From IMG/VR virus record IMGVR_UViG_3300029044_000314, positions 88,108-152,107 of that record: a DNA stretch of 64,000 nucleotides, one strand, 5' to 3'. This document shows, one piece after another, positions 47,531 through 64,000 of the stretch (position 1 is the first letter of the stretch; every line of letters starts with the position of its first letter). A program made the position numbers and the translations under genes. This stretch comes from a virus. The notes under the pieces were generated by a model. The model was not told the DNA's origin and searched no databases. It saw only the letters and a program-made list of their open reading frames with translations.

Positions 47531-48355
47531 ATGAGCAACATCGACAGCATCATCGAACGCATCAACAACCTCATGGCAATAGCCGAAAACGAAGCATCCA
47601 GCGACAATGAGGCGCAAATGGCGTTCGAGCGGGCACAGAAACTCATTAACGAATATCGTATCGAAGACTGGAAACGCGACCGCACCCGCATGAACAAGCC
47701 AATCATCGAACGTGGCGTGAACGTAAGCAAAACCACCATCTACCATCAGCAAGGCTACCTTGCGACCATCATCGCCCAAGCTAACGAATGCCGCGCCTAC
47801 CTTCACGAAAGCCGGTGTGGCGGAAGGATTGAGGAACGTGCCGTCATGTTCGTAGGCGAGGAGGACGATGTGAACGCCGCAGTCCTTCTCTTCCAAAGCA
47901 TCGACCTATACTGCTCAGTCCACGCCCGCACTAGCTACGCGGACATGATTGACCAGCACGCCAAAGCGTACTATGAGGACAACAAGGAATACGTCGAAAC
48001 GCATTACGGACGTGAATCCTATCCGACGCTGACGGAATGCAAACAGTACATGCGTCGTGATTATCCACGCGCCAAGTTCTACTATGGTTATCGCGGTGGA
48101 TTCAACGAACGTTTGAGCGAACGTTTCGAGGAGCTTCGCAAGCAGAGTCTCGCCATTCCTTCCGGTCGTGAGCTGGTGTCATGCAAGAGTCAGCGTCTGA
48201 ACGAGTATTTTGACAAGCTTGAGCTGGTGTCGGGTCGTGCTACCACTGCTCGTGGTAGCAAGGATGGTTTTGCCCGTGGTGTGAGTGACGCGAACAATGT
48301 GGGTTTGGGTTTGTCTGAAATGGGTGTTTCGTCCCACGCTTTGCTGAATGCCTGA
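47531..48355 (+). CDS. DUF2786-like protein
   Basis: N-terminus MSNIDSIIERINNLMAIAENEASSDNEAQMAFERAQKLINEY fits the DUF2786 N-terminal signature common on plasmids and phages. Confidence 0.45.
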   Translation: MSNIDSIIERINNLMAIAENEASSDNEAQMAFERAQKLINEYRIEDWKRDRTRMNKPIIERGVNVSKTTIYHQQGYLATIIAQANECRAYLHESRCGGRIEERAVMFVGEEDDVNAAVLLFQSIDLYCSVHARTSYADMIDQHAKAYYEDNKEYVETHYGRESYPTLTECKQYMRRDYPRAKFYYGYRGGFNERLSERFEELRKQSLAIPSGRELVSCKSQRLNEYFDKLELVSGRATTARGSKDGFARGVSDANNVGLGLSEMGVSSHALLNA

Positions 48356-48360
48356 CTTTT

Positions 48361-48403
48361 CAGCCCGCTTCCTTGTTTTGGGGAGTGGGCTGTTTTTGTT
48401 TTT
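48361..48403 (+). terminator. putative intrinsic terminator
   Basis: cagcccgc...gggctg hairpin followed by tttttgttttt. Confidence 0.45.
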
Positions 48404-48416
48404 CCACCAGATATAG

Positions 48417-48439
48417 TATACTGGGATTGTTCACACAAA
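48417..48439 (+). promoter_or_regulatory. conserved 23-bp promoter-like motif
   Basis: tatactgggattgttcacacaaa. Confidence 0.55.
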
Positions 48440-48465
48440 AACTTGGTCTACAAAAGGAGCAACCC

Positions 48466-48843
48466 ATGAACACCTACTACGCCGCCATAGTCAACCACCC
48501 CAACCAGAAGCTCGACCCCGACAACAACATTCCACTAATCCAGATTTTCCACAGCGCCACCGAACGCAATAACTGGGTGAAAGCTTACGCCGATAATCCC
48601 CACGTGAAGACCATCGACTCGAAACAGGCGATTCGTTGGCTCCGCTTCACCTACCGCCAGTATCGAAACCAGAAGATTCCCTCCCGCATGAGCAGAGACG
48701 GCGTGGTCACGAAGTTCCTCCGCACCTGCTCGTTCCAACCCCTACTCCACACGAAGAGAATCAGCCTTACGCCGGAAGAGGTCATCAAGCATCTCTCCGA
48801 CCCCGAAGACCATGTGCTGAGGAAAATCGGATACACTCGCTGA
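48466..48843 (+). CDS. hypothetical protein
   Basis: 125 aa after RBS aaaaggagc. Confidence 0.45.
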   Translation: MNTYYAAIVNHPNQKLDPDNNIPLIQIFHSATERNNWVKAYADNPHVKTIDSKQAIRWLRFTYRQYRNQKIPSRMSRDGVVTKFLRTCSFQPLLHTKRISLTPEEVIKHLSDPEDHVLRKIGYTR

Positions 48844-48854
48844 AAGGACAAAAA

Positions 48855-49268
48855 ATGAGTGAAACTATCGAAGACGCCAAGACCGAACCCCGTCCGACTT
48901 GGACGAAGCTAAAGGACGGTTGGAAAGTCCGAATCCCGAAAGAGTGGTGGGACAATTGGAGCGAGGCTGGTGAAACCGACGAGTTCCCGGTATTCAAAGC
49001 CAATGGCGAGGTGTCTCACGTGAACATCGTCAAGGTCAGCAAGCCGTTCGTGTTGGACGGTGTGGAATACGTCATAGGCACGCCAAGGAAGGAAACCTAC
49101 CGTCGTGGGTCTGCCCTCTCCCGCACTTCCAATACCGCTCGTAAGCGCAGTGGCATTCGTTGTGAGGAGTGCGGCTCCACCAAGGGCGTGCATCTGACAA
49201 GGGACATTAACGGCATCGGTTGCCTGTTATGCTCTCTTTGCGATGATGGTTCCGCGAGCGTCTGCTGA
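48855..49268 (+). CDS. hypothetical protein with C-terminal Cys-cluster (Zn-ribbon-like)
   Basis: 137 aa; CEECGS...CLLCSLCDDGS. Confidence 0.45.
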   Translation: MSETIEDAKTEPRPTWTKLKDGWKVRIPKEWWDNWSEAGETDEFPVFKANGEVSHVNIVKVSKPFVLDGVEYVIGTPRKETYRRGSALSRTSNTARKRSGIRCEECGSTKGVHLTRDINGIGCLLCSLCDDGSASVC

Positions 49269-49345
49269 TTGGGTTTGCGGGGATATGGTCTTGTTGCTGT
49301 AGTTCCCGCTTTTTGTTTTGTAGCGTGTTTTGTCCAAGCAAATTG

Positions 49346-49368
49346 TATACTGGAATTGTTCACACAAA
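49346..49368 (+). promoter_or_regulatory. conserved 23-bp promoter-like motif
   Basis: tatactggaattgttcacacaaa (consensus copy). Confidence 0.55.
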
Positions 49369-49390
49369 CAGGAAACCAAAAGGAGAAAAA

Positions 49391-49591
49391 ATGCATATCA
49401 AGGATGTTCTGCTCATGACGCTTGCCACCATCGCTTTCGGTGGGATGGCAACCGCAATCGTGTTCGGCATCTACTCGTTCGGCACTTGGCTGTTCACGTT
49501 TGACCGCACGTTCGGCGTCGTGTCGGTCTGCGCCCTCATAGTCGCGTTGCTGGTCGTCGCGGTCAAGATTCGATTGAGCATGAATCGATAG
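49391..49591 (+). CDS. small membrane protein
   Basis: 66 aa, two TM helices, RBS aaaaggagaaaaa. Confidence 0.45.
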   Translation: MHIKDVLLMTLATIAFGGMATAIVFGIYSFGTWLFTFDRTFGVVSVCALIVALLVVAVKIRLSMNR

Positions 49592-49605
49592 TTTTGGTTT
49601 GTGGC

Positions 49606-49640
49606 CCCGTCGTTTTGGCGGGGCTTTTTGTGTGGACGTG
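49606..49640 (+). terminator. intrinsic terminator
   Basis: gccccg-tcgttttgg-cggggc followed by tttttgt. Confidence 0.65.
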
Positions 49641-49669: not shown

Positions 49670-49692
49670 TATACTGGAAATGTCCACATAAA
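49670..49692 (+). promoter_or_regulatory. conserved 23-bp promoter-like motif (variant)
   Basis: tatactggaaatgtccacataaa. Confidence 0.5.
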
Positions 49693-49719
49693 ACAGGCGG
49701 AGCCAACCAAGGAGAACAA

Positions 49720-50028
49720 ATGAACGACACCAAAACCTACTACCAGCCAATCTTCCACGACAACGGCACCATCAGCGTAGTCGCCGGAGACAACACCTAC
49801 GACCACACCTACGCGGACAAGCCCATGAACGAAGCTATCGTGGAAACCTCCCACCACAAGCCCAATCCAATCAACTGGAAGCACGTCGTATCCAACTGCG
49901 ACGAACGTTGGAACCTCATCAAAGGCAACGTGTGCTTGGCTGTCCTGAGTGGCAATTGGGACGTTTTCGAGAACCGTCACGAAAACAGAATCATGCTCGT
50001 CACCCGCAAGGGAACCCGAATCCTCTGA
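49720..50028 (+). CDS. hypothetical protein
   Basis: 102 aa after RBS ccaaggagaacaa. Confidence 0.45.
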   Translation: MNDTKTYYQPIFHDNGTISVVAGDNTYDHTYADKPMNEAIVETSHHKPNPINWKHVVSNCDERWNLIKGNVCLAVLSGNWDVFENRHENRIMLVTRKGTRIL

Positions 50029-50038
50029 CCCACACCAA

Positions 50039-50073
50039 GATTGGAATTGGAAGACTGCCGTATTACTCCTTCC
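50039..50073 (+). repeat. copy 2 of the conserved ~35-bp motif
   Basis: gattggaattggaagactgccgtattactccttcc. Confidence 0.5.
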
Positions 50074-50116
50074 TTCTACTTCTCTCATATTTGGCAAAAA
50101 AGAAAGGAAGAATTAC

Positions 50117-50848
50117 ATGAAAGAACGGAACATCTCACTGGAAAACGACCTCATGATGTTAGGTCAGGAACCGATGGACGAACCCGACTCGTCCACCACC
50201 ATCGAACTGCAAGAAATCGTGAAGAAGACGGAACGAAAGATGTTGAACCCACCGGCACCACCATTGAAATTCGAACCGAAAACAGCGGACAAGTCCACCG
50301 AAAACACCGACGAAACCGCCAGCAAGACGAGCAAGAAAACCGCCCCGACAGAAAACAAAACCAATCCGAAACCCATTCCGAAAGCCTATAAGCCCGCCAC
50401 ACGCAAAACCAACAAAACCGCACCTCCAACACCAACCCCCACCAACCCATACGCGCCCGTCGAATACGACTGCAACGGCAAATGGCGTCAACTGTTGACG
50501 GGAATCGCCGTCGGCGGAATTCTCGTGGCGGCAATCGCATTGTTGGTGGGAGCCAAAACATGTTGGCGGTTCATCGCCATAGGCGCATTGACCGCATTCG
50601 CCATGCTCCCGCTCTACGGCTGGTTCGACGAACTCGAACGGGACATGGCGGTCAAGGCAGTCGAAAAGGATTACGGGATTCGTGTTCTGCAAACAAACGG
50701 AGGTAATGGACTCGCGGAAGTGCATTACATGTTCCAACAAAATCCAACCGTCGAAGCCGGTATGGTCTCCTATGGTCATGGCTTGGCATGGTTGCGGAGC
50801 GTGGGCGGCAAGAAGATTGTCGGACGAAGGCAGCAGGTGAAAAAATGA
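50117..50848 (+). CDS. membrane protein with P/T/K-rich linker
   Basis: 243 aa; low-complexity KTAPTENKTNPKPIPKAYKPATRKTNKTAPPTPTPTNP, then 2 TM helices. Confidence 0.45.
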   Translation: MKERNISLENDLMMLGQEPMDEPDSSTTIELQEIVKKTERKMLNPPAPPLKFEPKTADKSTENTDETASKTSKKTAPTENKTNPKPIPKAYKPATRKTNKTAPPTPTPTNPYAPVEYDCNGKWRQLLTGIAVGGILVAAIALLVGAKTCWRFIAIGALTAFAMLPLYGWFDELERDMAVKAVEKDYGIRVLQTNGGNGLAEVHYMFQQNPTVEAGMVSYGHGLAWLRSVGGKKIVGRRQQVKK

Positions 50849-51222
50849 TACCCAGCACGGTCAAGGACGCACGTTTTCCCTCGTTCTTTTTCAACGGCGT
50901 TTGGCAAGGGCTTAAAACCGCCCTCATGCCGCACGCTTGCATATTCGACCCGTTGCCTCCCATGCCGACCGTACGCGATTGGCTTCAGGCCCATGGAGGC
51001 ACCGGCATGGATGCTGACGCATTCGACCGGTGCGAGAGCGAATGGTACGAGCTGCTGGAGCTGCGCAAACGGCAGATGAACGTGTTTTTGGCTGGCTTGT
51101 TCGTGGGCACGCTGGTGTATGCGATTGCGGCGCTTGCATTACTGGCGCTTGTTGGCTGGCTGGTGTATTCGCTGGTTCCGTTTGACGGTTTCGGACGTTT
51201 TGTCGATTGGGTTCGTGGTTGA
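50845..51222 (+). CDS. membrane protein
   Basis: 125 aa, ATGA-coupled to the upstream gene; C-terminal TM helices. Confidence 0.4.
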   Translation: MIPSTVKDARFPSFFFNGVWQGLKTALMPHACIFDPLPPMPTVRDWLQAHGGTGMDADAFDRCESEWYELLELRKRQMNVFLAGLFVGTLVYAIAALALLALVGWLVYSLVPFDGFGRFVDWVRG

Positions 51223-51241: not shown

Positions 51242-51264
51242 TATACTGGAACTGTTCACGCAAA
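51242..51264 (+). promoter_or_regulatory. conserved 23-bp promoter-like motif (variant)
   Basis: tatactggaactgttcacgcaaa. Confidence 0.5.
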
Positions 51265-51292
51265 AGAGTCGTTCTCGCACACAGGAGAAAAA

Positions 51293-51757
51293 ATGCATAA
51301 CACCTACAAGGAAACCCTCACAGTCTGGCCTGTCAACGACGCAACCGGACTGCACCTCTTCAGCACTCCGGAAGCCGCCGAAACATACGCAGACGAACAT
51401 CAAGGCGACATGTTGGAGCCAATGCCCGTCATGTCAGCCCGAACCGTCTGGCATTGCGTGGGATTGAGGTTCATTGGTCGAACCTTCGACTGGAACACCT
51501 ACACCGTCGAGGAACTCGGATACTCCACAAAGGAACGTCCGGCCACCGCCACTCGTCCTTCCGTTCGGGCCATTCCTCTAAATGGCGAGGACTTCGTGTT
51601 GGAAGTGTGCGCCGAAACCGAAGAAAAAACTCACGAATTGGCCGCGTTTCTTGGTGATTCGGTGGTTCGTTGGGTTGCTAAGGAGGGGAAGCAGAAGCCA
51701 TCCTTAAGCCATCGTCTTGAGCTTGCCTTAAAGAATTACGTTGAGGGTCGTGTCTGA
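51293..51757 (+). CDS. hypothetical protein
   Basis: 154 aa after RBS acaggagaaaaa. Confidence 0.45.
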   Translation: MHNTYKETLTVWPVNDATGLHLFSTPEAAETYADEHQGDMLEPMPVMSARTVWHCVGLRFIGRTFDWNTYTVEELGYSTKERPATATRPSVRAIPLNGEDFVLEVCAETEEKTHELAAFLGDSVVRWVAKEGKQKPSLSHRLELALKNYVEGRV

Positions 51758-51782: not shown

Positions 51783-51805
51783 TATACTGGAATTGTTCAC
51801 ACAAA
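51783..51805 (+). promoter_or_regulatory. conserved 23-bp promoter-like motif
   Basis: tatactggaattgttcacacaaa. Confidence 0.55.
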
Positions 51806-51827
51806 CAGGAAACCAAAAGGAACGAAA

Positions 51828-52757
51828 ATGAGCGACAACATCAACTGGAACGAAACCTCAATCTACGACTTCCTCCGCTTCGAACACAAACCAGAACGCC
51901 AAGCGGCATACGATGACCGGAGCCTCACCAAACTCGCCAACGCCGGACTGATACAACGCAACGAAGAAAAACACACGTGGAAGCTCACCCAAAAAGGCGA
52001 AAAGGAACTAGCCGACATCAGGCAGCATTTCGACTCCGGCAAACTCTCCGAACTCCCGCTCACGCTCCGACACTACTACTTCGACTGGGGCGAATACGAC
52101 ATTCACAACCTGCCGGTCAACGCACTTTCCCAAGTGGCCCTGCGGGACAGGAGCGCGGAGATTCGCCGGAAAGCCGTGGAACTGCTCGACAAGTACGACA
52201 AGCTTGACAAGGAAACATCGAACGCCCTATCCCACGACAAGGATTGGGAGGTTCGTTATATCGCGGCGAAGAAAGCCGACGTCTGCAACTTCTTCAACGA
52301 GGAGGATGAGCGCGTGGTCAAAAACGTCATCAGCAATCATGACGTCGATAAGGAGTGCTTGTCCCACTGGCTGGAAAGCCCTTACGGCGAGATTCGCGTC
52401 CAAGTGGCCCTCTTGTCCGATGACAGCGAGGTGGACGAAGTGTTCGAACGACTCGAACCGCAAGACGTGGCCAGTGTGCTGGGCGCTAAACCTCGGTGGG
52501 CGACCCGTGAAATCGTTATGAAAGCGTGGGAGGCGGCCGACGGGTGGGAGCGTTGCAGGCTGGCTCGGAATATGAGAGACATGCCGGATTCGTTCATCAA
52601 TCAGGCGTTTAAGGGCGAAGCTCGATGGACTCTACGTGAGCGTATGGAGGATTATCGCAAGGCGGTTCGCCAAGTGTTGGAGTTGGGTGCGATGTTCTCT
52701 GAGGACAGTGAAATTCGCCGGAAGATTTGGGAGCGTGCCGAGCGTGAGATTGGCTGA
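51828..52757 (+). CDS. HEAT-like repeat protein, paralog 1
   Basis: 309 aa; repeats of the RDRSAEIRRKAVELL / DWEVRYIAAKKA type; paralogous to 54894..55859. Confidence 0.5.
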   Translation: MSDNINWNETSIYDFLRFEHKPERQAAYDDRSLTKLANAGLIQRNEEKHTWKLTQKGEKELADIRQHFDSGKLSELPLTLRHYYFDWGEYDIHNLPVNALSQVALRDRSAEIRRKAVELLDKYDKLDKETSNALSHDKDWEVRYIAAKKADVCNFFNEEDERVVKNVISNHDVDKECLSHWLESPYGEIRVQVALLSDDSEVDEVFERLEPQDVASVLGAKPRWATREIVMKAWEAADGWERCRLARNMRDMPDSFINQAFKGEARWTLRERMEDYRKAVRQVLELGAMFSEDSEIRRKIWERAEREIG

Positions 52758-52767: not shown

Positions 52768-53067
52768 ATGCGAAAAGCGACATTCATCAGAAAATACTAC
52801 GGGCACGGATACGACGCCCATATGGTCTATCTCGACTATATGTATCGCGGGCACGAATACACGGTGTATGAGAACCTAGCCCAAGGCAATGAGCCTCTCG
52901 CGTGGCAACACCGTGACGAGCAAAGCCGCATAGACCAGTTAATAGAACAGAAAGAGCGGGAAAAGAACGCGAAGCCGAAGCCAAGCCGGTATGAGGACAC
53001 CGCGCAATACGCCATCGACCAGCTTTATAACTTTCTCGATGGTGAACCGTCGGACTTTGACCAGTAG
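52768..53067 (+). CDS. hypothetical protein
   Basis: 99-aa ORF immediately after the paralog-1 gene. Confidence 0.35.
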   Translation: MRKATFIRKYYGHGYDAHMVYLDYMYRGHEYTVYENLAQGNEPLAWQHRDEQSRIDQLIEQKEREKNAKPKPSRYEDTAQYAIDQLYNFLDGEPSDFDQ

Positions 53068-53154: not shown

Positions 53155-53177
53155 TATACTGGAATTGTTCACACAAA
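53155..53177 (+). promoter_or_regulatory. conserved 23-bp promoter-like motif, orphaned by IS insertion
   Basis: tatactggaattgttcacacaaa followed within ~10 nt by the IS end instead of an RBS/ATG. Confidence 0.5.
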
Positions 53178-53184
53178 TATGAGA

Positions 53185-54610
53185 GAAAGAGCCAAATTGA
53201 CATCCTCCCCCGCATTCATGCGGGGGATTCCCGAATCTTACGGTTCGGGTTTCTGTTCGCTACGACAAAACAAGAAAGGAGGGGACGCTAATGCGAGACC
53301 TTGGTTCCGGTTCTGCCGTCCTTGCAGACGCTGACCGCAAGCCCTGCGGCGAGGATGTTTTCGGCTGCGTTCAAATCCCTGTCATGGGTTGTTCCGCAGT
53401 CCGGGCACGTCCATGCCTTGACTTTGAGGCCGGGCATGCCCTTCGGCCCGGTCTTCGCCCCGCAGTGGGAGCAGGTTTGTGTGCTCGGATAATACCTGTC
53501 GATGGTTATGAGCTGTCGCCCGTACCATTCGGCCTTGTATTCGAGCATTCGACGGAACTCCGACCATCCGGCGTCCATGATGCTCCTGTTCAGCCCGTTT
53601 TTCGCGGACTGGCCGTTGGGGAGCCAATGGTTCGGATTATCCGGGTCGGGTTTCGGCGCGCATCTTTTGGCCATGTTCTTCACGTTGAGGTCTTCGATGA
53701 CCACCGTTTGGTTCTCGCGGATTATCCTCGTGCTCAACTTGTGGAGGAAGTCACGGCGCATGTCCGTGATTCTGGCGTAGGTGCGGGCCACCTTGAGGGC
53801 GGCTTTCCGACGATTGTTGCTGCCTTTGGCTTTGCGGGACAACGCCTGTTGCTCCCGTTCGAGCCGTTGGGCGAGTTTCTTGTAGTGGCGTGGATTCGCT
53901 ATGGTCTCCCCGTCGCTGGTGACGGCGTAGCTGTCCACTCCCAAGTCGATTCCGACGGCGTTCCTTCGGGTGGGGAGAAGGCGGATGGTCTCCTCCACGA
54001 GGATGCTGACATGCCATCGTCCGGCGGCGTCCAAGCTTACGGTCACGGTGCTCGGCTCCGTCTTGCGGGGCAGTGTTCTGGACCATCGTATCGGCAATGG
54101 TTCGCGCATCTTGGCGAGCGTGAGTTCGTTGCGCTTGGCATCCCATTTGAACGCGCTTCGAGTGTATTCGGCGCTTCCGCCGTGGGATTTGGCCTTGAAT
54201 CTCGGATAGTCGCCGGTCTGCTTGAAGAAGTTGGAGAACGCCGTCTGCAAGTGTCTCAACGCCTGTTGCAGCGGCACACAGGACACTTCGTTCATGTACG
54301 AGTATTCGGCCGTTTTCTTCCATTGGGTGAGCATGGCGCTGGTCTGGACGTAGGTGATGCTCTTGCGCTCCGCCGTCCATGCGGTGGAGCGGGCTTCCAA
54401 CGCGAGATTGTAGACCTTTCGGCAGCAGCCGACCGTGCGCCTGAGCAGTTGTTCCTGCTCGGGCGTCGGATAGAAGCGGAACCTGTACGCCCGCTTGCAT
54501 GCATGCCTTCTGACCATGTTTCACATTATATCATATCAATCTGTGAAAGGAGGACGGTTTGCTTCCTCCCCGCCCTAAAGGACAGGGTCTCCGCAAACCA
54601 AAAAAAAGAT
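53185..54610 (-). mobile_element. IS200/IS605-family TnpB-only insertion sequence (IS1341-like)
   Basis: tnpB plus structured ends: hairpins ctcccccgcattcatgcggggg and cccgaa...ttcggg 3' of tnpB; ggagga...tcctcc and ccct...aggg 5' of tnpB; no tnpA; exact boundaries uncertain. Confidence 0.55.
53288..54517 (-). CDS. tnpB: TnpB (OrfB_IS605) RNA-guided endonuclease-type transposase accessory protein
   Basis: 409 aa; RuvC-like core (GIDLGVDSYAVT, VVIEDLNVKNM) and C-terminal Zn-finger CSHCG...CPDCG. Confidence 0.85.
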   Translation of the reverse strand: MVRRHACKRAYRFRFYPTPEQEQLLRRTVGCCRKVYNLALEARSTAWTAERKSITYVQTSAMLTQWKKTAEYSYMNEVSCVPLQQALRHLQTAFSNFFKQTGDYPRFKAKSHGGSAEYTRSAFKWDAKRNELTLAKMREPLPIRWSRTLPRKTEPSTVTVSLDAAGRWHVSILVEETIRLLPTRRNAVGIDLGVDSYAVTSDGETIANPRHYKKLAQRLEREQQALSRKAKGSNNRRKAALKVARTYARITDMRRDFLHKLSTRIIRENQTVVIEDLNVKNMAKRCAPKPDPDNPNHWLPNGQSAKNGLNRSIMDAGWSEFRRMLEYKAEWYGRQLITIDRYYPSTQTCSHCGAKTGPKGMPGLKVKAWTCPDCGTTHDRDLNAAENILAAGLAVSVCKDGRTGTKVSH

Positions 54611-57047: not shown

Positions 57048-57057
57048 GAAATTGGAT

Positions 57058-57092
57058 TGGAAGACTGCCGTTTCTATGCCTCCTTATTGTTC
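57058..57092 (+). repeat. copy 3 of the conserved ~35-bp motif
   Basis: aaattggattggaagactgccgtttctatgcctcc. Confidence 0.45.
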
Positions 57093-57121: not shown

Positions 57122-57144
57122 ATATACTGGAATTGTTCACACAG
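57122..57144 (+). promoter_or_regulatory. conserved 23-bp promoter-like motif
   Basis: tatactggaattgttcacacagt. Confidence 0.55.
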
Positions 57145-57174
57145 TAAGAAGTTGAATCCCAACAAGGAGAAAAA

Positions 57175-57440: not shown

Positions 57441-57605
57441 ATGAGTAACCACGACTGGGTAGCAACCGACAGTCCCAATAAAAACAACACTCACAAGAAC
57501 AACCGTTCCACTCATAACGGATGGGACGCCGGTAGCGCTTGGAACCCGCAATCCAAGGAACGAAACGAATTCGGCATACGCAATACCGACTGGAGCAACG
57601 ACTAG
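57441..57605 (+). CDS. small hypothetical protein
   Basis: 54 aa, N/W-rich; weak support. Confidence 0.25.
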   Translation: MSNHDWVATDSPNKNNTHKNNRSTHNGWDAGSAWNPQSKERNEFGIRNTDWSND

Positions 57606-58023: not shown

Positions 58024-58254
58024 TTGGAAGGAGCGCGAATGCCCCATTACTTGTTGGACGCGGCTAATGACGCGACTGAACTCCCATCCGCAGACTTGGA
58101 TAACATCCAGTCGGTTCTGCGTACCATGCCTACTCTTGATTCGGAAGCGCCCGTGTTGGCTTGTGAGATTTTGGATGCTTGGGACGAGGATTGTAGGATT
58201 CTTCGCCGCCGTCCGAGGCTGGTGTTGTTGAATGTTGAAGAGCCTGAATTCTGA
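58024..58254 (+). CDS. hypothetical protein
   Basis: 76 aa after RBS ggaaggagcg. Confidence 0.35.
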   Translation: MEGARMPHYLLDAANDATELPSADLDNIQSVLRTMPTLDSEAPVLACEILDAWDEDCRILRRRPRLVLLNVEEPEF

Positions 58255-58299: not shown

Positions 58300-58323
58300 T
58301 AGAGTGAGATAGTTCACACCAAA
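58300..58323 (+). promoter_or_regulatory. degenerate copy of the 23-bp motif
   Basis: ttagagtgagatagttcacaccaa, upstream of 58336. Confidence 0.3.
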
Positions 58324-58335: not shown

Positions 58336-58581
58336 ATGACCTTAAAAGAACTCCCCTACCAAGACGGAATTAACTGGAAGGAACTCGAAGGCAAGCCCGC
58401 AATTTTCAACTGGAACGGCAAACCCATGGCCGGAACCCTCTACTTGGACGGTTTCAGCAATCTCGCCGTTCGAGAACTGTCCGGCTATATGCCGGTTTTA
58501 TATGTTTGGCCGGATGATACGACTCATGTCAATGTCAAGTGTGTGACGGATTTTCATGTGTTCGAGTTCGTTGAGGATTAG
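58336..58581 (+). CDS. hypothetical protein
   Basis: 81 aa after RBS aagaaggaaaacc. Confidence 0.4.
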   Translation: MTLKELPYQDGINWKELEGKPAIFNWNGKPMAGTLYLDGFSNLAVRELSGYMPVLYVWPDDTTHVNVKCVTDFHVFEFVED

Positions 58582-59011
58582 TGTAGTTCGGGACGCTGAA
58601 ACTGCGGCTTCTATTCCTATTCCGGAGATAATCCGAACGTATTATCCCGGCTTTGATACGTGGTTCGACCGCACGGTTCTCCCCTCATTAGGGAAAGACC
58701 GTGCGATTCTTTTAGCCCGCACGGATGATGGGTTGGCGGGGTTTTGCGTTCTCAAGAGAACTTCGTCGGAACGGAAGATTTGCACTTTATGCGTTTACGA
58801 GGGCTTTCGGAATCGAGGAGTCGGTTCCGCTCTGGTCGAATATGCGTTGGGTTTGCTGTGCGAGCAGTTTCCTCTGGTGACGGTGCCGGAGGAACTGTTG
58901 CCGGTGTATGAGGGTTTCTTCCGTCGTTTTGGTTTTCGTTTGTCTGGCTCGCGTGTGGGTTTGTATCGGGGTGGGAAGAGGGAGTTCTTTTTTAATCGAA
59001 CGCTGGCTTAG
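58556..59011 (+). CDS. GNAT-family N-acetyltransferase
   Basis: Acetyl-CoA binding motif A region CVYEGFRNRGVGSALVEYAL; start codon uncertain (overlaps the previous gene). Confidence 0.55.
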   Translation: MCSSSLRISVVRDAETAASIPIPEIIRTYYPGFDTWFDRTVLPSLGKDRAILLARTDDGLAGFCVLKRTSSERKICTLCVYEGFRNRGVGSALVEYALGLLCEQFPLVTVPEELLPVYEGFFRRFGFRLSGSRVGLYRGGKREFFFNRTLA

Positions 59012-59044: not shown

Positions 59045-59067
59045 TATAGTGGGATTGTTCACAAAGA
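59045..59067 (+). promoter_or_regulatory. conserved 23-bp promoter-like motif (variant)
   Basis: tatagtgggattgttcacaaaga. Confidence 0.45.
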
Positions 59068-59093
59068 CAAAGACAACCAAAAAGGAGAACGCA

Positions 59094-59465
59094 TTGAATC
59101 AATCAACTGGCATCGGCAAACGAATCCTCTTCGATGACCACCCAACTCGCGCAGTATTCGACACCAAGGAACTGCCAACAGACGACTCCTATGCGCTCTA
59201 CCGCGTATACCTGCGTTCTTGGCAACGGCATTCCTGCCGACCGGGAACCGAGGATACTCCCATGTTCGACGTGATATGCCCTGCAAGATGGTGCCGTTGG
59301 ATTGCTCACGTCAGCATTCTGAACTATTTGGACGACATAAGCTGGTTGGCTTGGCCGGTGGAAGGTGGTGTCAGTTGGCAGCATAGGACAATCGACCCTT
59401 ATTCCGTCCACTATTCCACCGATACCCATATTCCGGTAATCGACTTGCGCGAAAGCGAAGAATAG
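59094..59465 (+). CDS. hypothetical protein (TTG start)
   Basis: RBS aaaaaggagaacg then TTG; 123 aa. Confidence 0.3.
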   Translation: MNQSTGIGKRILFDDHPTRAVFDTKELPTDDSYALYRVYLRSWQRHSCRPGTEDTPMFDVICPARWCRWIAHVSILNYLDDISWLAWPVEGGVSWQHRTIDPYSVHYSTDTHIPVIDLRESEE

Positions 59466-59473: not shown

Positions 59474-59869
59474 ATGTTCGACACTCAGAACACGCCTCGA
59501 TTCTCGACCATAGGCGTCACCTACACGAAGCATCAGAACAATGCGGCGCTTAGCATGAGTTCCGCCGAAGATTCGACCATGCGCCAACTGGGATTCACCG
59601 ACCACCGTGAGGGGTATTGGTACCTCTGCCGTTCAGTCTCCCCCGACCATGACATGACATTAAATGTCGAGATTGCCAAGGCCGGTAGCGACTGGCAGAT
59701 AGACGTGTTGGACGAGAACTTCTGCCAACCCTACGACTACCAGTATTTACTCAACGTGAACCCGACGTTGGATTATCCCAACAAGGTGGCTGACGAATGC
59801 GAGAAATGGTTCCGGAAACTATCCGAATGGGGTTTGCTGCACGGCTGGCATGAGGGAATGTACGTCTGA
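59474..59869 (+). CDS. hypothetical protein
   Basis: 131-aa ORF. Confidence 0.4.
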   Translation: MFDTQNTPRFSTIGVTYTKHQNNAALSMSSAEDSTMRQLGFTDHREGYWYLCRSVSPDHDMTLNVEIAKAGSDWQIDVLDENFCQPYDYQYLLNVNPTLDYPNKVADECEKWFRKLSEWGLLHGWHEGMYV

Positions 59870-60165: not shown

Positions 60166-60169
60166 GCGT

Positions 60170-60215: not shown

Positions 60216-60800
60216 ATGAGCTGGGACAGATACCAAAGTCGAGACCCCAGAAGAATCGACCCAATGAAAACACCACTCTACGATTACGTGGTCTTGGATA
60301 CCGAAACCACCGGCTTCAAACCCGAAAACGGGGCTAAACTCATCGAAATCGGAGCCGTGAAAATCCACGGGGGAAAACTCGTAGACCGATACGAGCAACT
60401 TATTGACCCGCACCAGCATATCCCCGAACACATCACCTCCCTCACCGGAATCAACGACAGTATGGTCATCGGACAACCCGACGTAAGCCAAGCCATCATC
60501 CGATTCGACAAGTGGCTTGGCCCGCGAACCATCATTATGGCGCATAACGCGTCATTCGATTTAAGTTTCTTGGACGCGGCCATGAAAACCGTGAACGGTG
60601 GAATGTTCTTCTTTCCACACCGGTTTGTGGACACGTTGGAAATGAGTCGGAAAATCCATCCCGAAAAGCCAAGCCATAAGGTTGCCGTGCTTATCCGCGA
60701 CTATGGTATCGGTGACGTGGAAGAGCATCGCGCCTTGTCCGACGCGACTCAGGAAAACATGCTGTATGAAGCCATGCGCAGAGAGGAGTTTGGGTGCTAA
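60216..60800 (+). CDS. DnaQ-like (DEDDh) 3'-5' exonuclease
   Basis: Exo I VVLDTETTG, Exo II MAHNASFDLSFL, Exo III HRALSDA. Confidence 0.75.
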   Translation: MSWDRYQSRDPRRIDPMKTPLYDYVVLDTETTGFKPENGAKLIEIGAVKIHGGKLVDRYEQLIDPHQHIPEHITSLTGINDSMVIGQPDVSQAIIRFDKWLGPRTIIMAHNASFDLSFLDAAMKTVNGGMFFFPHRFVDTLEMSRKIHPEKPSHKVAVLIRDYGIGDVEEHRALSDATQENMLYEAMRREEFGC

Positions 60801-61058
60801 ATGGGATATGAGGACATGTTCAATCCCGAATGCAGGGACTATCTGAAATCACGCAAACCGTCGCAACGGGAGCAGGAGATAGCGAAGCTTGAGAAACAGG
60901 CCGACAAGAAGCATGACATGTATGGCAACAAAACCCTCTACGAAGTCTCAGGAGAGGTTGCGGCCATCTACGAAAGCCAGAAGGCGTTGCGCTTGAGGTT
61001 GGAAAGCATCGAGGAAAAACTGGACGAACTCTTAAGGACTCAGAAAGGACTGGGGTGA
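60801..61058 (+). CDS. hypothetical coiled-coil protein
   Basis: 85 aa, immediately follows the exonuclease gene. Confidence 0.4.
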   Translation: MGYEDMFNPECRDYLKSRKPSQREQEIAKLEKQADKKHDMYGNKTLYEVSGEVAAIYESQKALRLRLESIEEKLDELLRTQKGLG

Positions 61059-61624: not shown

Positions 61625-61724
61625 CGGAGATTGACGAAAACAATCAGGAAGCGGCTATGTTCCTTATGTGGAACAGTGGGCACAATATTGTGCTCGCTGT
61701 TTTTCTTTTTTAGGAGGAGCCGGA

Positions 61725-61985
61725 ATGTCCCAGCATAGCGACAAAAGCCACAAGAACAAGAAGGTCGTGGTCATTGAGAAGGTGCGGGACAAGTATGGTT
61801 CCGTCATCGCTTTGAAGGTTGTATTGTATCGTCGGCATGATAGTGAGAATGGGAAGGTTTGGGATATGAAGCGTTCTCATACGTTCAGTGCGGCTTTCAG
61901 TCGTCGTGCTTGTAGGGAACAGGCGAAGACGTTGGCTCGTCAGTGGGCCGATAAGTATGGTGCGAAGGTTGTGAAGAGGGGGTAG
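61725..61985 (+). CDS. basic hypothetical protein
   Basis: 86 aa after RBS taggaggagc. Confidence 0.4.
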   Translation: MSQHSDKSHKNKKVVVIEKVRDKYGSVIALKVVLYRRHDSENGKVWDMKRSHTFSAAFSRRACREQAKTLARQWADKYGAKVVKRG

Positions 61986-62018
61986 TTGCCCTCTTTAATG
62001 GTTTATGTTATACTGGGG

Positions 62019-62041
62019 GTGTTCACATAAAAAACCATTCC
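62019..62041 (+). promoter_or_regulatory. conserved 23-bp promoter-like motif (variant)
   Basis: tatactgggggtgttcacataaa. Confidence 0.45.
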
Positions 62042-62091
62042 AAAAAAGGAGAACACCATGAAAAAACATCGACCCATACGAACTCATGCAC

Positions 62092-62126
62092 GATTGGGAT
62101 TGGAATACTGCCGTATTACTACTTCC
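62092..62126 (+). repeat. copy 4 of the conserved ~35-bp motif
   Basis: gattgggattggaatactgccgtattactacttcc; lies inside a 26-codon mini-ORF (62058-62138) that follows RBS aaaaaggagaacacc. Confidence 0.45.
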
Positions 62127-62157
62127 TTTTGCTGAACAGTAAGAGGAGACGGACATC

Positions 62158-62784
62158 ATGCACAGCTTATACAAGACCGCAGGTAAATGCACTCTGAACC
62201 GAAGCAAAGTCCGCTACCCCAACAAAAGGGAAGCCCAACTCGCATTGGCTGTCATCAAAGGACGAGGAAATCCGAAACACACTGAGAAACGCGCATACCA
62301 TTGCCCTATCTGCAACGGATGGCATCTGACCAGCGCCGAAACCGTGAACGATACAGTCCTGTCCGGGAGCGTGCTCCAACACACCAATCCAGACGCGTTC
62401 GACACAGGAATGAAAGCGTTCCTCTCTGGTTCCAAACGCGGCAAATATTCCGCAAGCAAAGCCAGCCTGACCCGACGTGTCCGACATTTGCTCCACCTGT
62501 TCGCAGCCAACGATATTCCGAATGACTCTTGGGACAATCCATGGTTGTGGGCAACTCTTAGATTCCAAATCATGTGGAGGGGCGGAGACCAGAAGGCCGA
62601 ACAGCTTCTATCCACTTCGAAGAAAACGGTCAAAATGGCGGGCGACATGCTCACCAAAGACAAGGAGCCGTTCCTTCGCGTGGCTGAAACCCGGAAGGAA
62701 GCACAAAAATTACAGAATACACCACTACCGGCATGGTTGGCCGTCGCACTGATGGCCGACAAGGGAAAGGAGCAGAAAGTTTGA
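62158..62784 (+). CDS. hypothetical protein
   Basis: 208 aa; CPICNGWH Cys pair near the N-terminus. Confidence 0.4.
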   Translation: MHSLYKTAGKCTLNRSKVRYPNKREAQLALAVIKGRGNPKHTEKRAYHCPICNGWHLTSAETVNDTVLSGSVLQHTNPDAFDTGMKAFLSGSKRGKYSASKASLTRRVRHLLHLFAANDIPNDSWDNPWLWATLRFQIMWRGGDQKAEQLLSTSKKTVKMAGDMLTKDKEPFLRVAETRKEAQKLQNTPLPAWLAVALMADKGKEQKV

Positions 62785-62956
62785 ACGAAAACGAACTGAA
62801 AGAAAGGGCCGTCCACTCATTGCTCCAATCGAAGCTTGGTAAAGTCGCCCCGGCGGAAGCGTTTGTCATCGGATGGCGGAAAGGCTGGGACGAGGCTATC
62901 GACATGGCTTTGGAAATCGTTCGCAATGAACTCGATAAAGATGGCGAGAACGAATC

Positions 62957-63229
62957 GTGATTTGTTCCAAATACACGTGCATGTTGTGCGGAAGAGTCAC
63001 CGACTTGGACACCGGCTACAAGTACATCATCTCCGTCGTCCAAACAGGCGGTCACGGTCGATGCTCATACGCTCGAACATTGGTCATCTGCCAGCATTGC
63101 ATGCGCACGCATAAAACCGTCATGACCTTGCAACGCAAATCCTTGAATGAGGAAAACGTTCTTGAATTCCACAGGCCACCGAAAACCCGAAAAACGTCCA
63201 CCAAGAAAACCGGCGAGAAGAAAGGCTGA
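62957..63229 (+). CDS. Cys-rich (Zn-finger-like) basic protein
   Basis: 90 aa; CMLCGR...CQHCMRTH. Confidence 0.4.
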   Translation: MICSKYTCMLCGRVTDLDTGYKYIISVVQTGGHGRCSYARTLVICQHCMRTHKTVMTLQRKSLNEENVLEFHRPPKTRKTSTKKTGEKKG

Positions 63230-63237
63230 ACCGTTTT

Positions 63238-64000
63238 ATGGACACCAGTGAAAAGCAGATTATCGGAGAGAACGCCAAATACGTTTCCGACACCATCCCG
63301 CAGGAGACTAAGGATGGGCTTCGCGCCCATTTGAAGCCCGGATACGCCATGCCGGACGGCACCCATTATGCGACCGGCAAGGATTACACGGAGTTGATGC
63401 GCAATCTGCGCAACATCCAATACTGTGGCTGTCCGCTCTGCCACGACACGCAGTCTGGGCTGAAAACCATTCTCGCAACCAGCGGCATGACCGTCCGTGA
63501 GCTTGCCGAGGAAATCGCATGCGACGAATACGATTCGTATTCCGTTGACGAAATCCGCGACCTTGACCCGGAACAGTTGAAGCCGGTGGATGAGATTGTC
63601 GAGGATATCAACCGTTGGAGCCACGACCAGCGTGCGCTCGAACACGCTTCCTTCGGCACCGTCAGGCTTCTGTCCGTCTACTTGAACGTCAGTCTCGACC
63701 AGATGTACGACGAATTGGATTATCAGACGCTCATCTACACACCATGGGAGGAGGACTCCCACATTTACGGCTATGTGACGGTCATCCGTTACAAGGATGG
63801 AAAGTATGAGGTGGATGTTCCGGAATGCCGCTACCAGTGCGACGAAACGTATTGGAACGCGCGTCGCAAGATGGAAGAATCCAACACTCCCATCACGTTG
63901 GATGTTCTGCGTAGCGAACCGTGGAGCAAGGAGCATCGCACTCCCGTGGCATTGCCGGAACAGTATCGTGGCAAACAGTATCATCTGGGAGGTCATTCCA
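63238..64000 (+). CDS. hypothetical protein (3' partial, runs off the window)
   Basis: Open frame from the ATG at 63238 to the window end; no stop codon. Confidence 0.4.
   Translation, partial: MDTSEKQIIGENAKYVSDTIPQETKDGLRAHLKPGYAMPDGTHYATGKDYTELMRNLRNIQYCGCPLCHDTQSGLKTILATSGMTVRELAEEIACDEYDSYSVDEIRDLDPEQLKPVDEIVEDINRWSHDQRALEHASFGTVRLLSVYLNVSLDQMYDELDYQTLIYTPWEEDSHIYGYVTVIRYKDGKYEVDVPECRYQCDETYWNARRKMEESNTPITLDVLRSEPWSKEHRTPVALPEQYRGKQYHLGGHS

What the first reader, a model, noticed from the sequence alone, without database searches (positions are those of the whole stretch)
47531..64000. Array of more than 25 small, mostly unknown genes with individual promoters, resembling a plasmid leading-region or anti-defence/establishment island
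The array consists of short genes (54-320 aa), each or each pair with its own motif-type promoter and often its own intrinsic terminator. Recognisable members are the kind seen in conjugative-plasmid leading regions and phage early regions: a DUF2786-like protein, a DnaQ-like exonuclease, a GNAT acetyltransferase, and several Zn-ribbon/Cys-cluster proteins. There are also two full-length HEAT-like paralogs (51828..52757 and 54894..55859). A mirror-image array with the same promoter motif lies on the minus strand at 0.2-3.8 kb. Many of these ORFs may be uncharacterised anti-restriction, anti-CRISPR, SOS-inhibition or other establishment functions.
Basis: inference. Interest (0 to 1): 0.6.

Follow-up and report, generated by a model that had tools for sequence, protein, structure and literature searches.

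The report
Promoter-bounded gene cassettes on bifidobacterial megaplasmid
This stretch of a large conjugative plasmid of gut bifidobacteria holds about fifty small, mostly unknown genes, grouped behind one repeated promoter that is also the seam where genes are swapped between plasmid variants; that promoter is already published for a related plasmid, and an anti-restriction role is plausible but unproven.

Summary
Between 47531 and 64000 lie 31 plus-strand ORFs of 54-321 aa. A 21-nt motif, TATACTGGAATTGTTCACACA, recurs 14 times in the window at up to 3 mismatches (0 expected).

The window is 100% identical to ~217-kb metagenome contigs. Its backbone is syntenic with the conjugative Bifidobacterium megaplasmid pMP7017 at 50-65% aa identity. 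The motif is the counterpart of the 34-bp promoter-overlapping motif published for pMP7017 (Dineen 2024), where it marks a plasmid-wide regulon.

The array runs ~24 kb, to about 71.6 kb in window-equivalent coordinates, and abuts the VirB4-like T4SS genes. The ORFs are under purifying selection (pN/pS 0.25-0.31). Only 6 of 31 have pMP7017 homologues.

Breakpoints between sister plasmids fall on the promoter repeat (15 of 28, p=1e-9). This resembles the PeSL cassettes of T4-type phages.

No anti-defence family is detectable in the window. A sister plasmid, however, carries an ArdC anti-restriction homologue in the same array.

Leading-region status cannot be established. The oriT is unknown, there are no ssDNA promoters, and the motif is plasmid-wide.

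Verdict: a new member of a known kind, of moderate interest.

The parts
47481..47504 (+). signature promoter (extended -10 TGnTATACT plus conserved block GGAAnTGTTCACAnA), unit 1
   Evidence: 0 mismatches; PWM 36.8 bits
47531..48355 (+). DUF2786+DUF7168 protein, 274 aa, first gene of the array
   Evidence: Pfam 6e-9 and 2.8e-8; phrog_421, 5e-30; 31% identical to the pMP7017 DUF2786 protein
48361..48402 (+). intrinsic terminator
   Evidence: 13-bp stem followed by a T run
48417..48440 (+). signature promoter, unit 2
48466..48843 (+). ORF, 125 aa, basic, no family
48855..49268 (+). ORF, 137 aa, C-terminal Cys cluster
49346..49369 (+). signature promoter, unit 3
49391..49591 (+). ORF, 66 aa, two predicted TM segments
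49603..49635 (+). intrinsic terminator
49670..49693 (+). signature promoter, unit 4
49720..50028 (+). ORF, 102 aa, no family
50036..50080 (+). 35-45-nt intergenic repeat element (copy 1 of 3 in the array)
50117..50848 (+). ORF, 243 aa, Pro/Thr-rich with two TM segments
51007..51222 (+). ORF, 71 aa, two TM segments
51242..51265 (+). signature promoter, unit 5
51293..51757 (+). ORF, 154 aa, no family
51783..51806 (+). signature promoter, unit 6
51828..52757 (+). winged-HTH plus HEAT-like alpha-solenoid protein, 309 aa (paralogue 1)
   Evidence: weak HEAT and HTH_45 hits; AF2 pLDDT 82; only generic ARM/HEAT folds in PDB; 65 hits among 1.84e9 representatives
52768..53067 (+). ORF, 99 aa
53083..53126 (+). 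intrinsic terminator
53155..53178 (+). signature promoter, unit 7, now reading into the IS
53201..54607 (-). TnpB-only IS200/IS605-type element (tnpB 53288-54517, 409 aa); it replaced 179 bp of a 102-aa cassette gene
   Evidence: 97% identical to copies on B. longum megaplasmids; OrfB_IS605 2e-31 and TNB 6e-27; boundaries from comparison with L028
54608..54733 (+). 3' remnant of the disrupted 102-aa gene (intact at L028:11409-11717)
54850..54873 (+). signature promoter, unit 8
54894..55859 (+). winged-HTH plus HEAT-like protein, 321 aa (paralogue 2)
   Evidence: 34% identical to paralogue 1; HEAT_2 6.5e-4
55875..55917 (+). intrinsic terminator
55943..55966 (+). signature promoter, unit 9 (the homologous unit in L028 carries ArdC)
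55993..56253 (+). ORF, 86 aa
56300..56662 (+). ORF, 120 aa
56673..57047 (+). ORF, 124 aa, acidic, C-terminal Cys cluster
57046..57090 (+). intergenic repeat element (copy 2)
57123..57146 (+). signature promoter, unit 10
57175..57429 (+). ORF, 84 aa (phrog_21331, function unknown)
57441..57605 (+). ORF, 54 aa
57643..57972 (+). ORF, 109 aa, very acidic (net charge -17)
58039..58254 (+). ORF, 71 aa, acidic
58300..58323 (+). degenerate copy of the promoter motif (18 bits)
58336..58581 (+). ORF, 81 aa (46% identical to a pMP7017 ORF)
58556..59011 (+). GNAT acetyltransferase, 151 aa
   Evidence: Acetyltransf_7 7e-9; phrog_13728 1e-18
59045..59068 (+). signature promoter, unit 12
59094..59465 (+). 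ORF, 123 aa (TTG start)
59474..59869 (+). ORF, 131 aa
59896..60165 (+). ORF, 89 aa
60170..60193 (+). weaker promoter motif copy (22.5 bits), pMP7017-like GTCCACA core
60216..60800 (+). DEDDh (DnaQ-like) 3'-5' exonuclease, 194 aa
   Evidence: RNase_T 6e-32; 56% identical to the pMP7017 exonuclease, which also has a motif promoter
60801..61058 (+). ORF, 85 aa
61055..61624 (+). ORF, 189 aa, N-terminal CPCC motif
61670..61713 (+). intrinsic terminator
61725..61985 (+). ORF, 86 aa, very basic
61972..61997 (+). terminator-like hairpin
62009..62032 (+). signature promoter, unit 15
62089..62133 (+). intergenic repeat element (copy 3), overlapping a 25-codon mini-ORF at 62056-62133
62158..62784 (+). 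ORF, 208 aa, basic, N-terminal Zn-ribbon (phrog_3424, function unknown)
62781..62960 (+). ORF, 59 aa (phrog_33887, function unknown)
62957..63229 (+). ORF, 90 aa, CxxC pairs
63238..64000 (+). ORF running off the window (295 aa in L023)
216..3866 (-). mirror array of 9 small genes with promoter motifs at 501-524, 820-843, 3374-3397 (weak) and 3843-3866; continues about 4 kb left of the window
26764..26787 (-). same promoter motif in front of a conserved backbone operon (26717 down to about 23554)

Best explanation
The finding covers the first 16.5 kb of a hyperplastic accessory region of about 24 kb and about 50 genes. The region belongs to a ~217-kb conjugative megaplasmid of the pMP7017 family, carried by bifidobacteria of the B. 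adolescentis / catenulatum group.

Anatomy (shown). The region is built from small transcription units of 1-4 genes. Each unit starts with the family's signature promoter: a weak -35 (TT), an extended -10 (TGnTATACT), then a 15-nt block, GGAAnTGTTCACAnA, that spans the expected start site. A short leader with an AAGGAG ribosome-binding site follows. About a third of the units end in an intrinsic terminator.

Regulation (inferred). The part downstream of the -10 is far more conserved than promoter function requires. It also differs in a lineage-specific way from pMP7017, which has GAATATGTCCACATA. I therefore read it as the operator of a plasmid-encoded regulator that co-evolves with it. The regulator is not identified. 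A conserved ImmR-like HTH / ImmA-like peptidase pair just outside the window is a candidate. Such a circuit would give a burst of expression when the plasmid enters a cell that lacks the regulator. It would act from double-stranded DNA, not from the incoming single strand.

Cassette shuffling (shown). The repeated promoter is also the recombination seam. Insertions, replacements and relocations of gene cassettes between sister plasmids have their junctions on it.

Cargo (shown and inferred). The genes are mostly lineage-restricted ORFans under purifying selection. The recognisable ones act on DNA or proteins: an exonuclease, a GNAT, DUF2786, winged-HTH/HEAT solenoids, and an RNA ligase further on. 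ArdC sits in the same slot in a sister plasmid. This makes counter-defence or establishment the most likely theme for part of the cargo, but that is an inference.
For: - Replicon: the T4CP is 59% identical to those of pMP7017 and the B. longum megaplasmids. All genes from 4247 to 23429 are syntenic with pMP7017 36-55 kb. The window is 100% identical to 217-kb contigs.
- Motif: 14 matches against 0 expected. The logo shows a weak -35, TGn, TATACT and the downstream block. The PWM finds 27 homologous sites in pMP7017.
- Published counterpart: a 34-bp motif on the -10 of highly expressed genes, 19 copies, 56 genes, proposed to be a transcription-factor site.
- Real genes: pN/pS 0.25-0.31 with no stop codons or frameshifts.
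- Variable cargo: 6 of 31 ORFs have pMP7017 homologues. Cassettes are relocated or replaced in L027 and L028.
- Junctions on the motif: 15 of 28 block ends, p=1.3e-9. L001-type variants have an extra [promoter + 104-aa gene].
- ArdC in L028, behind a motif promoter.
- The ImmR/ImmA-like pair is conserved in both lineages.
Against: - No transcription data exist for this plasmid. The start site and the operator function are inferred.
- The conserved block could instead act at RNA level, as a shared 5' leader.
- No regulator has been shown to bind the motif.
- In pMP7017 the motif promoters are active in established log-phase cells, so any repression is at most partial.
- None of the 31 window ORFs matches a known anti-defence family.
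- The regulon in pMP7017 also contains CRISPR-Cas, sortase and other genes. The theme is therefore not purely counter-defence.
Confidence: 0.6

Rival explanations
1. Classical leading region. The array would be the first DNA to enter the recipient, lying next to oriT. It would be transcribed early, possibly from the incoming single strand, and would be dedicated to anti-restriction, anti-CRISPR and SOS-inhibition functions.
For: - The array is strictly unidirectional and lies directly upstream of, and co-oriented with, the VirB4-like ATPase and peptidoglycan-hydrolase T4SS genes. This is the F-like order (leading genes, then oriT, then tra genes) if an oriT sits near 71.6-74.3 kb.
- ArdC occurs in the sister array.
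- In pMP7017, ssb is preceded by the same motif. Lar and orphan methyltransferases are also annotated on that plasmid.
Against: - No oriT or relaxase is defined in the family.
- The only relaxase-like protein I found (18565-19761, PD-(D/E)XK fold, next to the T4CP) lies 26 kb from the array start. If oriT lies upstream of that operon, the plus-strand array would be on the non-template side (inference).
- The intergenic regions are 70-170 nt and do not fold better than shuffles, so there are no Frpo-like hairpins.
- The motif promoters are plasmid-wide and on both strands, and are expressed in steady state.
- At about 24 kb and 50 genes, the array is larger than the ~30-ORF zone of enrichment described for leading regions.
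Confidence: 0.15
2. Generic accessory region with no particular link to defence. The motif would simply be the family's standard strong promoter, and the small genes a mixed bag of niche, maintenance and selfish functions.
For: - The pMP7017 regulon includes CRISPR-Cas I-E, WhiB, sortase, RNA ligase and others.
- Three window ORFs are small membrane proteins.
- There are no anti-defence family hits.
- The HEAT-like family is tiny and has no functional analogue.
Against: - A 15-nt block beyond the -10 is not needed for a plain promoter, yet it is nearly invariant and lineage-specific.
- ArdC occupies a cassette slot in a sister plasmid.
- The rapid cargo turnover combined with purifying selection is the pattern typical of conflict genes (inference).
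Confidence: 0.2
3. Early-gene region of a phage or phage-plasmid. The contigs are filed as viral in IMG/VR.
For: - IMG/VR holds the element as UViGs of 217 kb.
- PHROG hits exist for DUF2786, the exonuclease, GNAT and a few ORFans.
- The terminator-promoter cassette architecture resembles T4-type hyperplastic regions.
Against: - No capsid, portal, terminase or tail genes were found in the ~100 kb examined.
- The element has a T4CP, a VirB4-like ATPase, ParA, RepA_C and sortase-dependent pili.
- Its relative pMP7017 is described as a conjugative plasmid.
Confidence: 0.03

Closest known systems
The 'pMP7017-specific regulon' defined by a 34-bp motif overlapping the -10 box (Dineen et al. 2024, PMC10832533)
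   Same: Same plasmid family: the backbone is syntenic. Same architecture: TATACT, then a conserved block, an A-rich leader and a ribosome-binding site, in many copies in front of mostly unknown small genes. Several orthologous genes carry the motif in both plasmids: DUF2786, the exonuclease and the HEAT-like protein.
   Different: The motif core differs: GGAATTGTTCACACA here, GAATATGTCCACATA there. Backbone identity is only 50-65%, below the 70% cut-off those authors used, so this lineage was not among their relatives. The probable hosts are B. adolescentis-group species rather than B. longum or B. breve. 25 of 31 array genes have no pMP7017 homologue. The role of the motif as a recombination junction is not mentioned in the sections of that paper I read.
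PeSL (promoter-early stem-loop) mobile regulatory cassettes in hyperplastic regions of T4-type phages (Arbiol 2010, PMC2839356; Comeau 2014, PMC4122927)
   Same: Repeated sigma70-like promoter and terminator stem-loop modules between small non-essential ORFan genes. Insertions, deletions and replacements between close relatives have their junctions at the repeats.
   Different: The element here is a conjugative plasmid of a Gram-positive host, not a phage. The repeat carries an extra conserved block over the start site. Only about a third of units have the terminator half. Mini-circles have not been looked for.
Anti-defence islands in plasmid leading regions (Samuel et al. 2024, PMC11541004)
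   Same: A unidirectional run of small genes on a conjugative element. ArdC is present in a sister plasmid. SSB, Lar and methyltransferases are annotated on pMP7017, and ssb is preceded by the same motif.
   Different: The position relative to oriT is unknown. There are no Frpo/ssi-type single-strand promoters. No known anti-defence family is detectable in this window. The promoter type is plasmid-wide.
CUP elements and ArdK in the leading region of IncN plasmids (Delver & Belogurov 1997, as cited in PMC6289460)
   Same: A repeated conserved upstream sequence that overlaps promoters of several establishment and anti-restriction genes and is bound by a plasmid-encoded repressor. This is the model for the operator reading proposed here.
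   Different: The sequence, host and regulator are unrelated. The binding protein here is unknown, and the copy number is much higher (at least 20 in 64 kb).

Membership tests
pMP7017-family bifidobacterial conjugative megaplasmid with the promoter-motif regulon | Backbone (T4CP, ParA, large membrane protein, DnaB and others) homologous to and syntenic with pMP7017 | tested here: met
   tblastn shows all 17 genes from 4247 to 23429 plus DnaB hitting pMP7017 36-60 kb in order, at 31-66% identity. The T4CP is 59% identical over 99% of its length.
pMP7017-family bifidobacterial conjugative megaplasmid with the promoter-motif regulon | Many copies of a conserved motif that overlaps the -10 box and precedes a ribosome-binding site and start codon | tested here: met
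   20 PWM sites in the window, all co-oriented with the next gene. The same PWM finds 27 sites in pMP7017.
pMP7017-family bifidobacterial conjugative megaplasmid with the promoter-motif regulon | At least 70% identity of backbone proteins (criterion used by Dineen et al. 2024 for 'pMP7017-positive') | tested here: not met
   Backbone identities are 31-66%. This is therefore a distinct lineage of the family, not a pMP7017 homologue in their sense.
pMP7017-family bifidobacterial conjugative megaplasmid with the promoter-motif regulon | Motif absent from chromosomes | tested here: met
   An exact-pattern scan of 185,579 species-representative genomes gave only 8 single matches, in unrelated taxa.
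pMP7017-family bifidobacterial conjugative megaplasmid with the promoter-motif regulon | Motif promoters transcriptionally active | not testable with these tools
   RNA-seq exists only for pMP7017.
Leading-region anti-defence island | Lies next to oriT on the side that enters the recipient first (about the first 30 ORFs) | tested here: inconclusive
   No oriT or relaxase is published for the family. A candidate MOBC-like relaxase lies at 18565-19761. The array lies 26 kb from it but directly upstream of the VirB4 module.
Leading-region anti-defence island | Genes oriented so that the transferred strand is the template | not testable with these tools
   The orientation is uniform, but transfer polarity is unknown.
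Leading-region anti-defence island | Frpo/ssi-type single-strand promoters | tested here: not met
   Ten intergenic regions folded as ssDNA gave z-scores from -2.2 to +0.8. The only stable hairpins are the terminators.
Leading-region anti-defence island | Enrichment in known anti-defence, SSB, methyltransferase or toxin-antitoxin genes | tested here: inconclusive
   None was found in the window. ArdC is present in sister plasmid L028. Lar, ssb and methyltransferases are annotated on pMP7017, and ssb is preceded by the motif.
PeSL-type mobile regulatory cassettes | Repeated promoter(+terminator) modules between small non-essential genes | tested here: met
   14 promoter copies in 16.5 kb. Five of them have a terminator hairpin directly upstream.
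PeSL-type mobile regulatory cassettes | Indel and replacement junctions between close relatives coincide with the repeats | tested here: met
   15 of 28 block ends lie within -40..+50 nt of a motif, against 8.6% expected; p=1.3e-9.
PeSL-type mobile regulatory cassettes | Carried by a T4-type phage; mini-circles formed by recombination between repeats | tested here: not met
   The element is a plasmid. Mini-circles cannot be tested here. It works like PeSLs but is not a member.

The most novel reading that the evidence does not exclude
The conserved block over the transcription start would be the operator of a single plasmid-encoded master repressor, perhaps the ImmR/ImmA-like pair. On entry into a naive cell, about 50 cassette genes would fire together (zygotic induction). 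Many of the lineage-restricted ORFans would be new anti-restriction, anti-CRISPR or anti-Abi proteins of bifidobacteria. The promoter/operator repeats would double as PeSL-like recombination modules that let plasmids trade these genes. That would be the first such mobile regulatory cassette system described on a conjugative plasmid.
Probability: 0.25. Interest if true: 0.65.

Novelty: new member of a known kind. Interest (0 to 1): 0.42.

Why it matters
Bifidobacteria are hard to manipulate genetically, largely because of restriction barriers. Their megaplasmids are the only known conjugative plasmids of the genus.

A co-regulated and rapidly shuffled set of about 50 small genes, with ArdC in one variant, is a natural place to look for proteins that disarm bifidobacterial defence systems. 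The compact promoter/operator could also be useful as an expression tool.

The element is common: exact copies of its proteins occur on hundreds of gut-metagenome contigs. It represents a lineage outside the published pMP7017 relatives.

The coincidence of recombination junctions with a regulatory repeat extends a mechanism known from T4-type phages to a plasmid. In passing, a candidate MOBC-like relaxase gives a first handle on how this plasmid family is mobilised.

Tried and rejected
- Phage hypothesis. My first guess came from the large ORFs at 27-41 kb. Pfam showed them to be DnaB, SPFH, pilin, sortase and an adhesin, not terminase, portal or tape measure.
- Nucleotide searches. Megablast against phage and plasmid collections matched nothing except the TnpB IS.
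- Anti-defence families. Pfam, PHROGs and NCBIfam gave no ArdA, KlcA, Lar, Acr, Ocr, PsiB or SSB hit on any of the 31 ORFs. phmmer with the pMP7017 Lar, pentapeptide-repeat and SSB proteins against the window proteins gave nothing below E=0.01.
- PADLOC. It matched only the exonuclease and weakly the GNAT in the array. Outside the array it flagged an IetA-like ATPase and a DRT-like RT.
- HEAT-like paralogues. Structure prediction plus a PDB fold search gave only generic solenoid matches. A profile search of 1.84e9 representatives gave 65 hits and no informative relatives.
- PDB sequence searches with DUF2786 and with ArdC(L028) found nothing useful.
- Frpo-like hairpins: none.
- RNA genes: no Rfam family and no tRNA in the window.
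- The 35-nt intergenic repeat shows no significant fold and stays unexplained.
- Regulator hunt. Pfam at relaxed thresholds on conserved small backbone proteins and on the mirror-array proteins found nothing.
- A pan-gene comparison of array against T4SS flank over 16 IMG/VR loci was too noisy to use.
- Walking further along the plasmid with the look-up of encoding contigs is limited to window proteins. IMG/VR loci allowed only about 27 kb to the right.

Full report

Yes. A codon-usage and RBS-based gene call places 31 plus-strand ORFs of 54-321 aa between 47531 and 64000. The last one runs off the window end.

It has 14 matches at up to 3 mismatches in the 64-kb window, where shuffles give none. 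Eleven are on the + strand between 47481 and 59045. Three are on the - strand at 504-3866.

A weight matrix built from these sites adds 62009, 60170 and 58300 (weak) on the + strand. On the - strand it adds 3397 (weak) and 26787. Each strong site is followed after 20-45 nt by an AAGGAG-type ribosome-binding site and a start codon.

Six convincing intrinsic terminators separate units.

Pfam confirms DUF2786+DUF7168, a GNAT and an RNase_T/DEDDh exonuclease.

The two 'HEAT-like paralogues' are 34% identical. Their Pfam HEAT hits are weak. An AlphaFold model of the first (pLDDT 82) has an N-terminal winged helix followed by an alpha-solenoid.

A TnpB-only IS200/IS605-type element sits on the minus strand at 53201-54607 in the middle of the array. 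The array also continues beyond the window.

**2. What replicon is this?**

It is not a phage. The window encodes:
- RepA_C, ParA and a second ParA-like ATPase
- a DnaB helicase and an SPFH protein
- a sortase with a pilin and a 1795-aa adhesin
- a reverse transcriptase and an AAA_16 ATPase.

The 886-aa protein at 15452-18112 is 59% identical to proteins of pMP7017 (B. breve) and the B. longum megaplasmids. It is 25-27% identical to annotated T4SS coupling proteins of other actinobacterial plasmids. All 17 genes from 4247 to 23429, plus DnaB, hit pMP7017 36-60 kb in the same order at 31-66% identity.

The window is 100% identical to metagenome contigs of 217,215 and 217,462 bp. The element is also held in IMG/VR as 'viral' contigs of 216.8 and 217.1 kb.

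On the host: the exact RepA_C protein is deposited as a B. adolescentis MAG protein. Relatives of the HEAT-like protein at 88-90% identity are named B. catenulatum and B. pseudocatenulatum.

pMP7017 is the published conjugative megaplasmid of the genus. With backbone identities below 70%, this lineage falls outside the relatives catalogued by Dineen et al..

**3. The promoter.**

A logo of 22 non-redundant sites of this plasmid shows four elements:
- a weak -35 (TT at the position expected for a 17-bp spacer)
- an extended -10 (TGn)
- TATACT
- a nearly invariant block, GGAAnTGTTCACAnAAA.

The same weight matrix finds 27 sites all around pMP7017 on both strands, with the variant TATACTGAATATGTCCACATAAAA.

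This is the 34-bp motif that Dineen et al. (2024) found overlapping the -10 of highly expressed pMP7017 genes. They counted 19 copies predicted to drive 56 genes, called it a 'presumed pMP7017-specific regulon', and proposed a transcription-factor binding site. That regulon includes CRISPR-Cas I-E, the exonuclease, an RNA ligase, a methyltransferase with ssb, sortase and many unknowns.

So the motif is known. Promoter activity is supported by RNA-seq only in the relative.

An exact-pattern scan of 185,579 representative genomes found only single chance hits.

**4. Extent and flanks.**

To the right, the array continues through an RNA ligase, a DUF3310 protein and more ORFans, with further motif copies. 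It ends at about 71.6 kb in window-equivalent coordinates.

Beyond the array, on the same strand, come:
- two LRV-repeat proteins
- a VirB4-like AAA_10 ATPase
- a 772-aa peptidoglycan hydrolase
- FtsK/SpoIIIE-type ATPases.

To the left, the minus-strand array continues for about 4 kb. It ends at an ImmA/IrrE-like peptidase and an ImmR-like HTH protein, a pair that is conserved in pMP7017.

**5. Are the ORFs genes?**

Against variants that are 98.3-99.4% identical, the plus-strand ORFs show pN/pS of 0.25-0.31. There are no stop codons or frameshifts.

**6. Content.**

Apart from the members already named, Pfam, PHROGs and NCBIfam find nothing beyond a few unknown-function PHROGs. No Ard, Klc, Lar, Acr, Psi or SSB family is detectable, even with pMP7017's own Lar, SSB and pentapeptide-repeat proteins as queries.

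The HEAT-like family is tiny, with 65 hits among 1.84 billion representatives. It has only generic solenoid neighbours in the PDB.

Several ORFs are strongly acidic, several carry Cys clusters and three are small membrane proteins. These are leads, not assignments.

**7. Comparison with sister plasmids.**

Only 6 of the 31 array proteins have a pMP7017 homologue.

Two sister plasmids of the same lineage, L027 and L028, keep the framework but relocate, replace or insert cassettes.

- In L028, the block corresponding to 56673-59011 is replaced. An ArdC homologue (ArdcN 1.5e-12, Peptidase_M78 1.6e-8, both above Pfam cut-offs) sits in the unit driven by the promoter homologous to 55943.
- L028 also has the intact 102-aa gene that the IS destroyed in the window.
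- L001-type variants have an extra [promoter + 104-aa gene] ahead of the DUF2786 gene.

The ends of nucleotide homology blocks fall on the promoter repeat. Fifteen of 28 ends lie within -40..+50 nt of a motif start, against 8.6% expected (p = 1.3e-9). The repeat is therefore both a regulatory element and the recombination seam.

**8. Is it a leading region?**

This cannot be decided. No oriT or relaxase is published for the family, and PLSDB types all members as non-mobilisable.

A repeat-rich 930-bp gap upstream of its operon (20949-21875) is a candidate oriT. If that is right, the array starts 26 kb away and sits on the strand that would not be the template.

Alternatively, the order [array, then VirB4 module, all co-oriented] would fit the F-like layout if an oriT lies between them.

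Three further points argue against the strict leading-region reading:
- The intergenic regions are short and do not fold like Frpo elements.
- The motif is plasmid-wide.
- In pMP7017 the motif promoters are active in steady state.

**9. Mechanism.**

Shown:
- a repeated sigma-70-type promoter with an extra conserved block
- unit structure with terminators
- purifying selection
- cargo turnover with junctions at the repeat
- ArdC in one variant.

Inferred:
- The extra block is the operator of a plasmid-encoded, co-evolving regulator.
- Absence of that regulator in a new host would give a burst of expression from double-stranded DNA.
- Part of the cargo counters host defences.

The rivals are a strict leading region, a generic accessory region and a phage early region. 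They are weighed in the structured fields.

**10. Relation to known systems.**

The array belongs to the pMP7017-type regulon. It works like the PeSL cassettes of T4-type phages. It may work like the CUP/ArdK regulon of IncN leading regions. It shares only some features with the leading-region anti-defence islands of Samuel et al..

**11. Verdict.**

This is a new member of a known kind: a new lineage and a new motif variant. Two additions go beyond the literature I could read. One is the promoter repeat acting as a recombination junction. The other is an ArdC cassette in a sister plasmid. Interest is moderate.

Noticed in passing
[not shown]
   Followed up: partly
window 20949-21875: A 930-bp non-coding gap, T-skewed (AT skew -0.36) and rich in repeats, lies between divergent operons upstream of the T4CP/relaxase-candidate operon. 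It is a possible oriT or ori.
   Followed up: partly
window 53201-54607 (-), with 53155-53178 and 54608-54733: A TnpB-only IS (97% identical to copies on B. longum megaplasmids) replaced 179 bp of a 102-aa cassette gene that is intact in L028:11409-11717. The orphaned signature promoter at 53155 now reads antisense into the 3' end of tnpB and the element's end. The insertion is present in all close variants seen.
   Followed up: partly
window 25099-25121 (-), 50036-80, 57046-90, 62089-133 (+): A 35-45-nt intergenic element with core GATTGGAAGACTGCCGTATTACT occurs four times (0 expected). It is always in sense orientation and three of the four copies lie just upstream of a gene's ribosome-binding site. 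It has no Rfam match and no significant fold. Its function is unknown.
   Followed up: partly
window 24068-24967 (-): An AAA ATPase matches PADLOC IetA models (1.4e-57), with no recognisable IetS protease next to it. It lies in a conserved backbone operon driven by the signature promoter at 26787.
   Followed up: no
window 42865-44094 (+) and 46086-47243 (-): A reverse transcriptase has its best PADLOC matches to defence-associated RT (DRT/UG) models. An AAA_16 ATPase lies nearby. Both sit in a cargo block (pilus to RT) that is absent from sister plasmid L028.
   Followed up: no
window 7147-7215 and 7027-7062: Three 21-bp tandem iterons (CACACTTTGGTGGGAAAAGTC) and a 17-nt inverted repeat lie beside the RepA_C gene. 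The pMP7017 RepA homologue is dispensable for replication, so their role is open.
   Followed up: no
L025:13975-14822 (about 4.2-4.8 kb left of window start): An ImmA/IrrE-like peptidase and an ImmR-like HTH protein sit at the end of the minus-strand array. The HTH protein is 37% identical over 71 aa to pMP7017 24932-25486. The pair is a candidate master regulator of the motif promoters.
   Followed up: partly
L028:13280-14134: An ArdC-type anti-restriction homologue (ArdcN + Peptidase_M78) lies in the array of a sister plasmid. An HTH_17 protein (L028:8022-8201) and an ATP-grasp R2K-like protein (L028:14940-15974) are other variant-specific cassettes.
   Followed up: yes
whole element (IMGVR_UViG_3300029338_000174 and others): The ~217-kb plasmid is catalogued in IMG/VR as viral contigs. 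No virion genes were seen in about 100 kb, and T4SS, partition and pilus genes are present. This looks like a misclassification.
   Followed up: partly
L053 (window-equivalent 71.7-74.1 kb): Two paralogous LRV-repeat proteins of about 400 aa, with a shared N-terminal NPxxxRDPLGKW motif, lie between the array and the VirB4-like ATPase.
   Followed up: no
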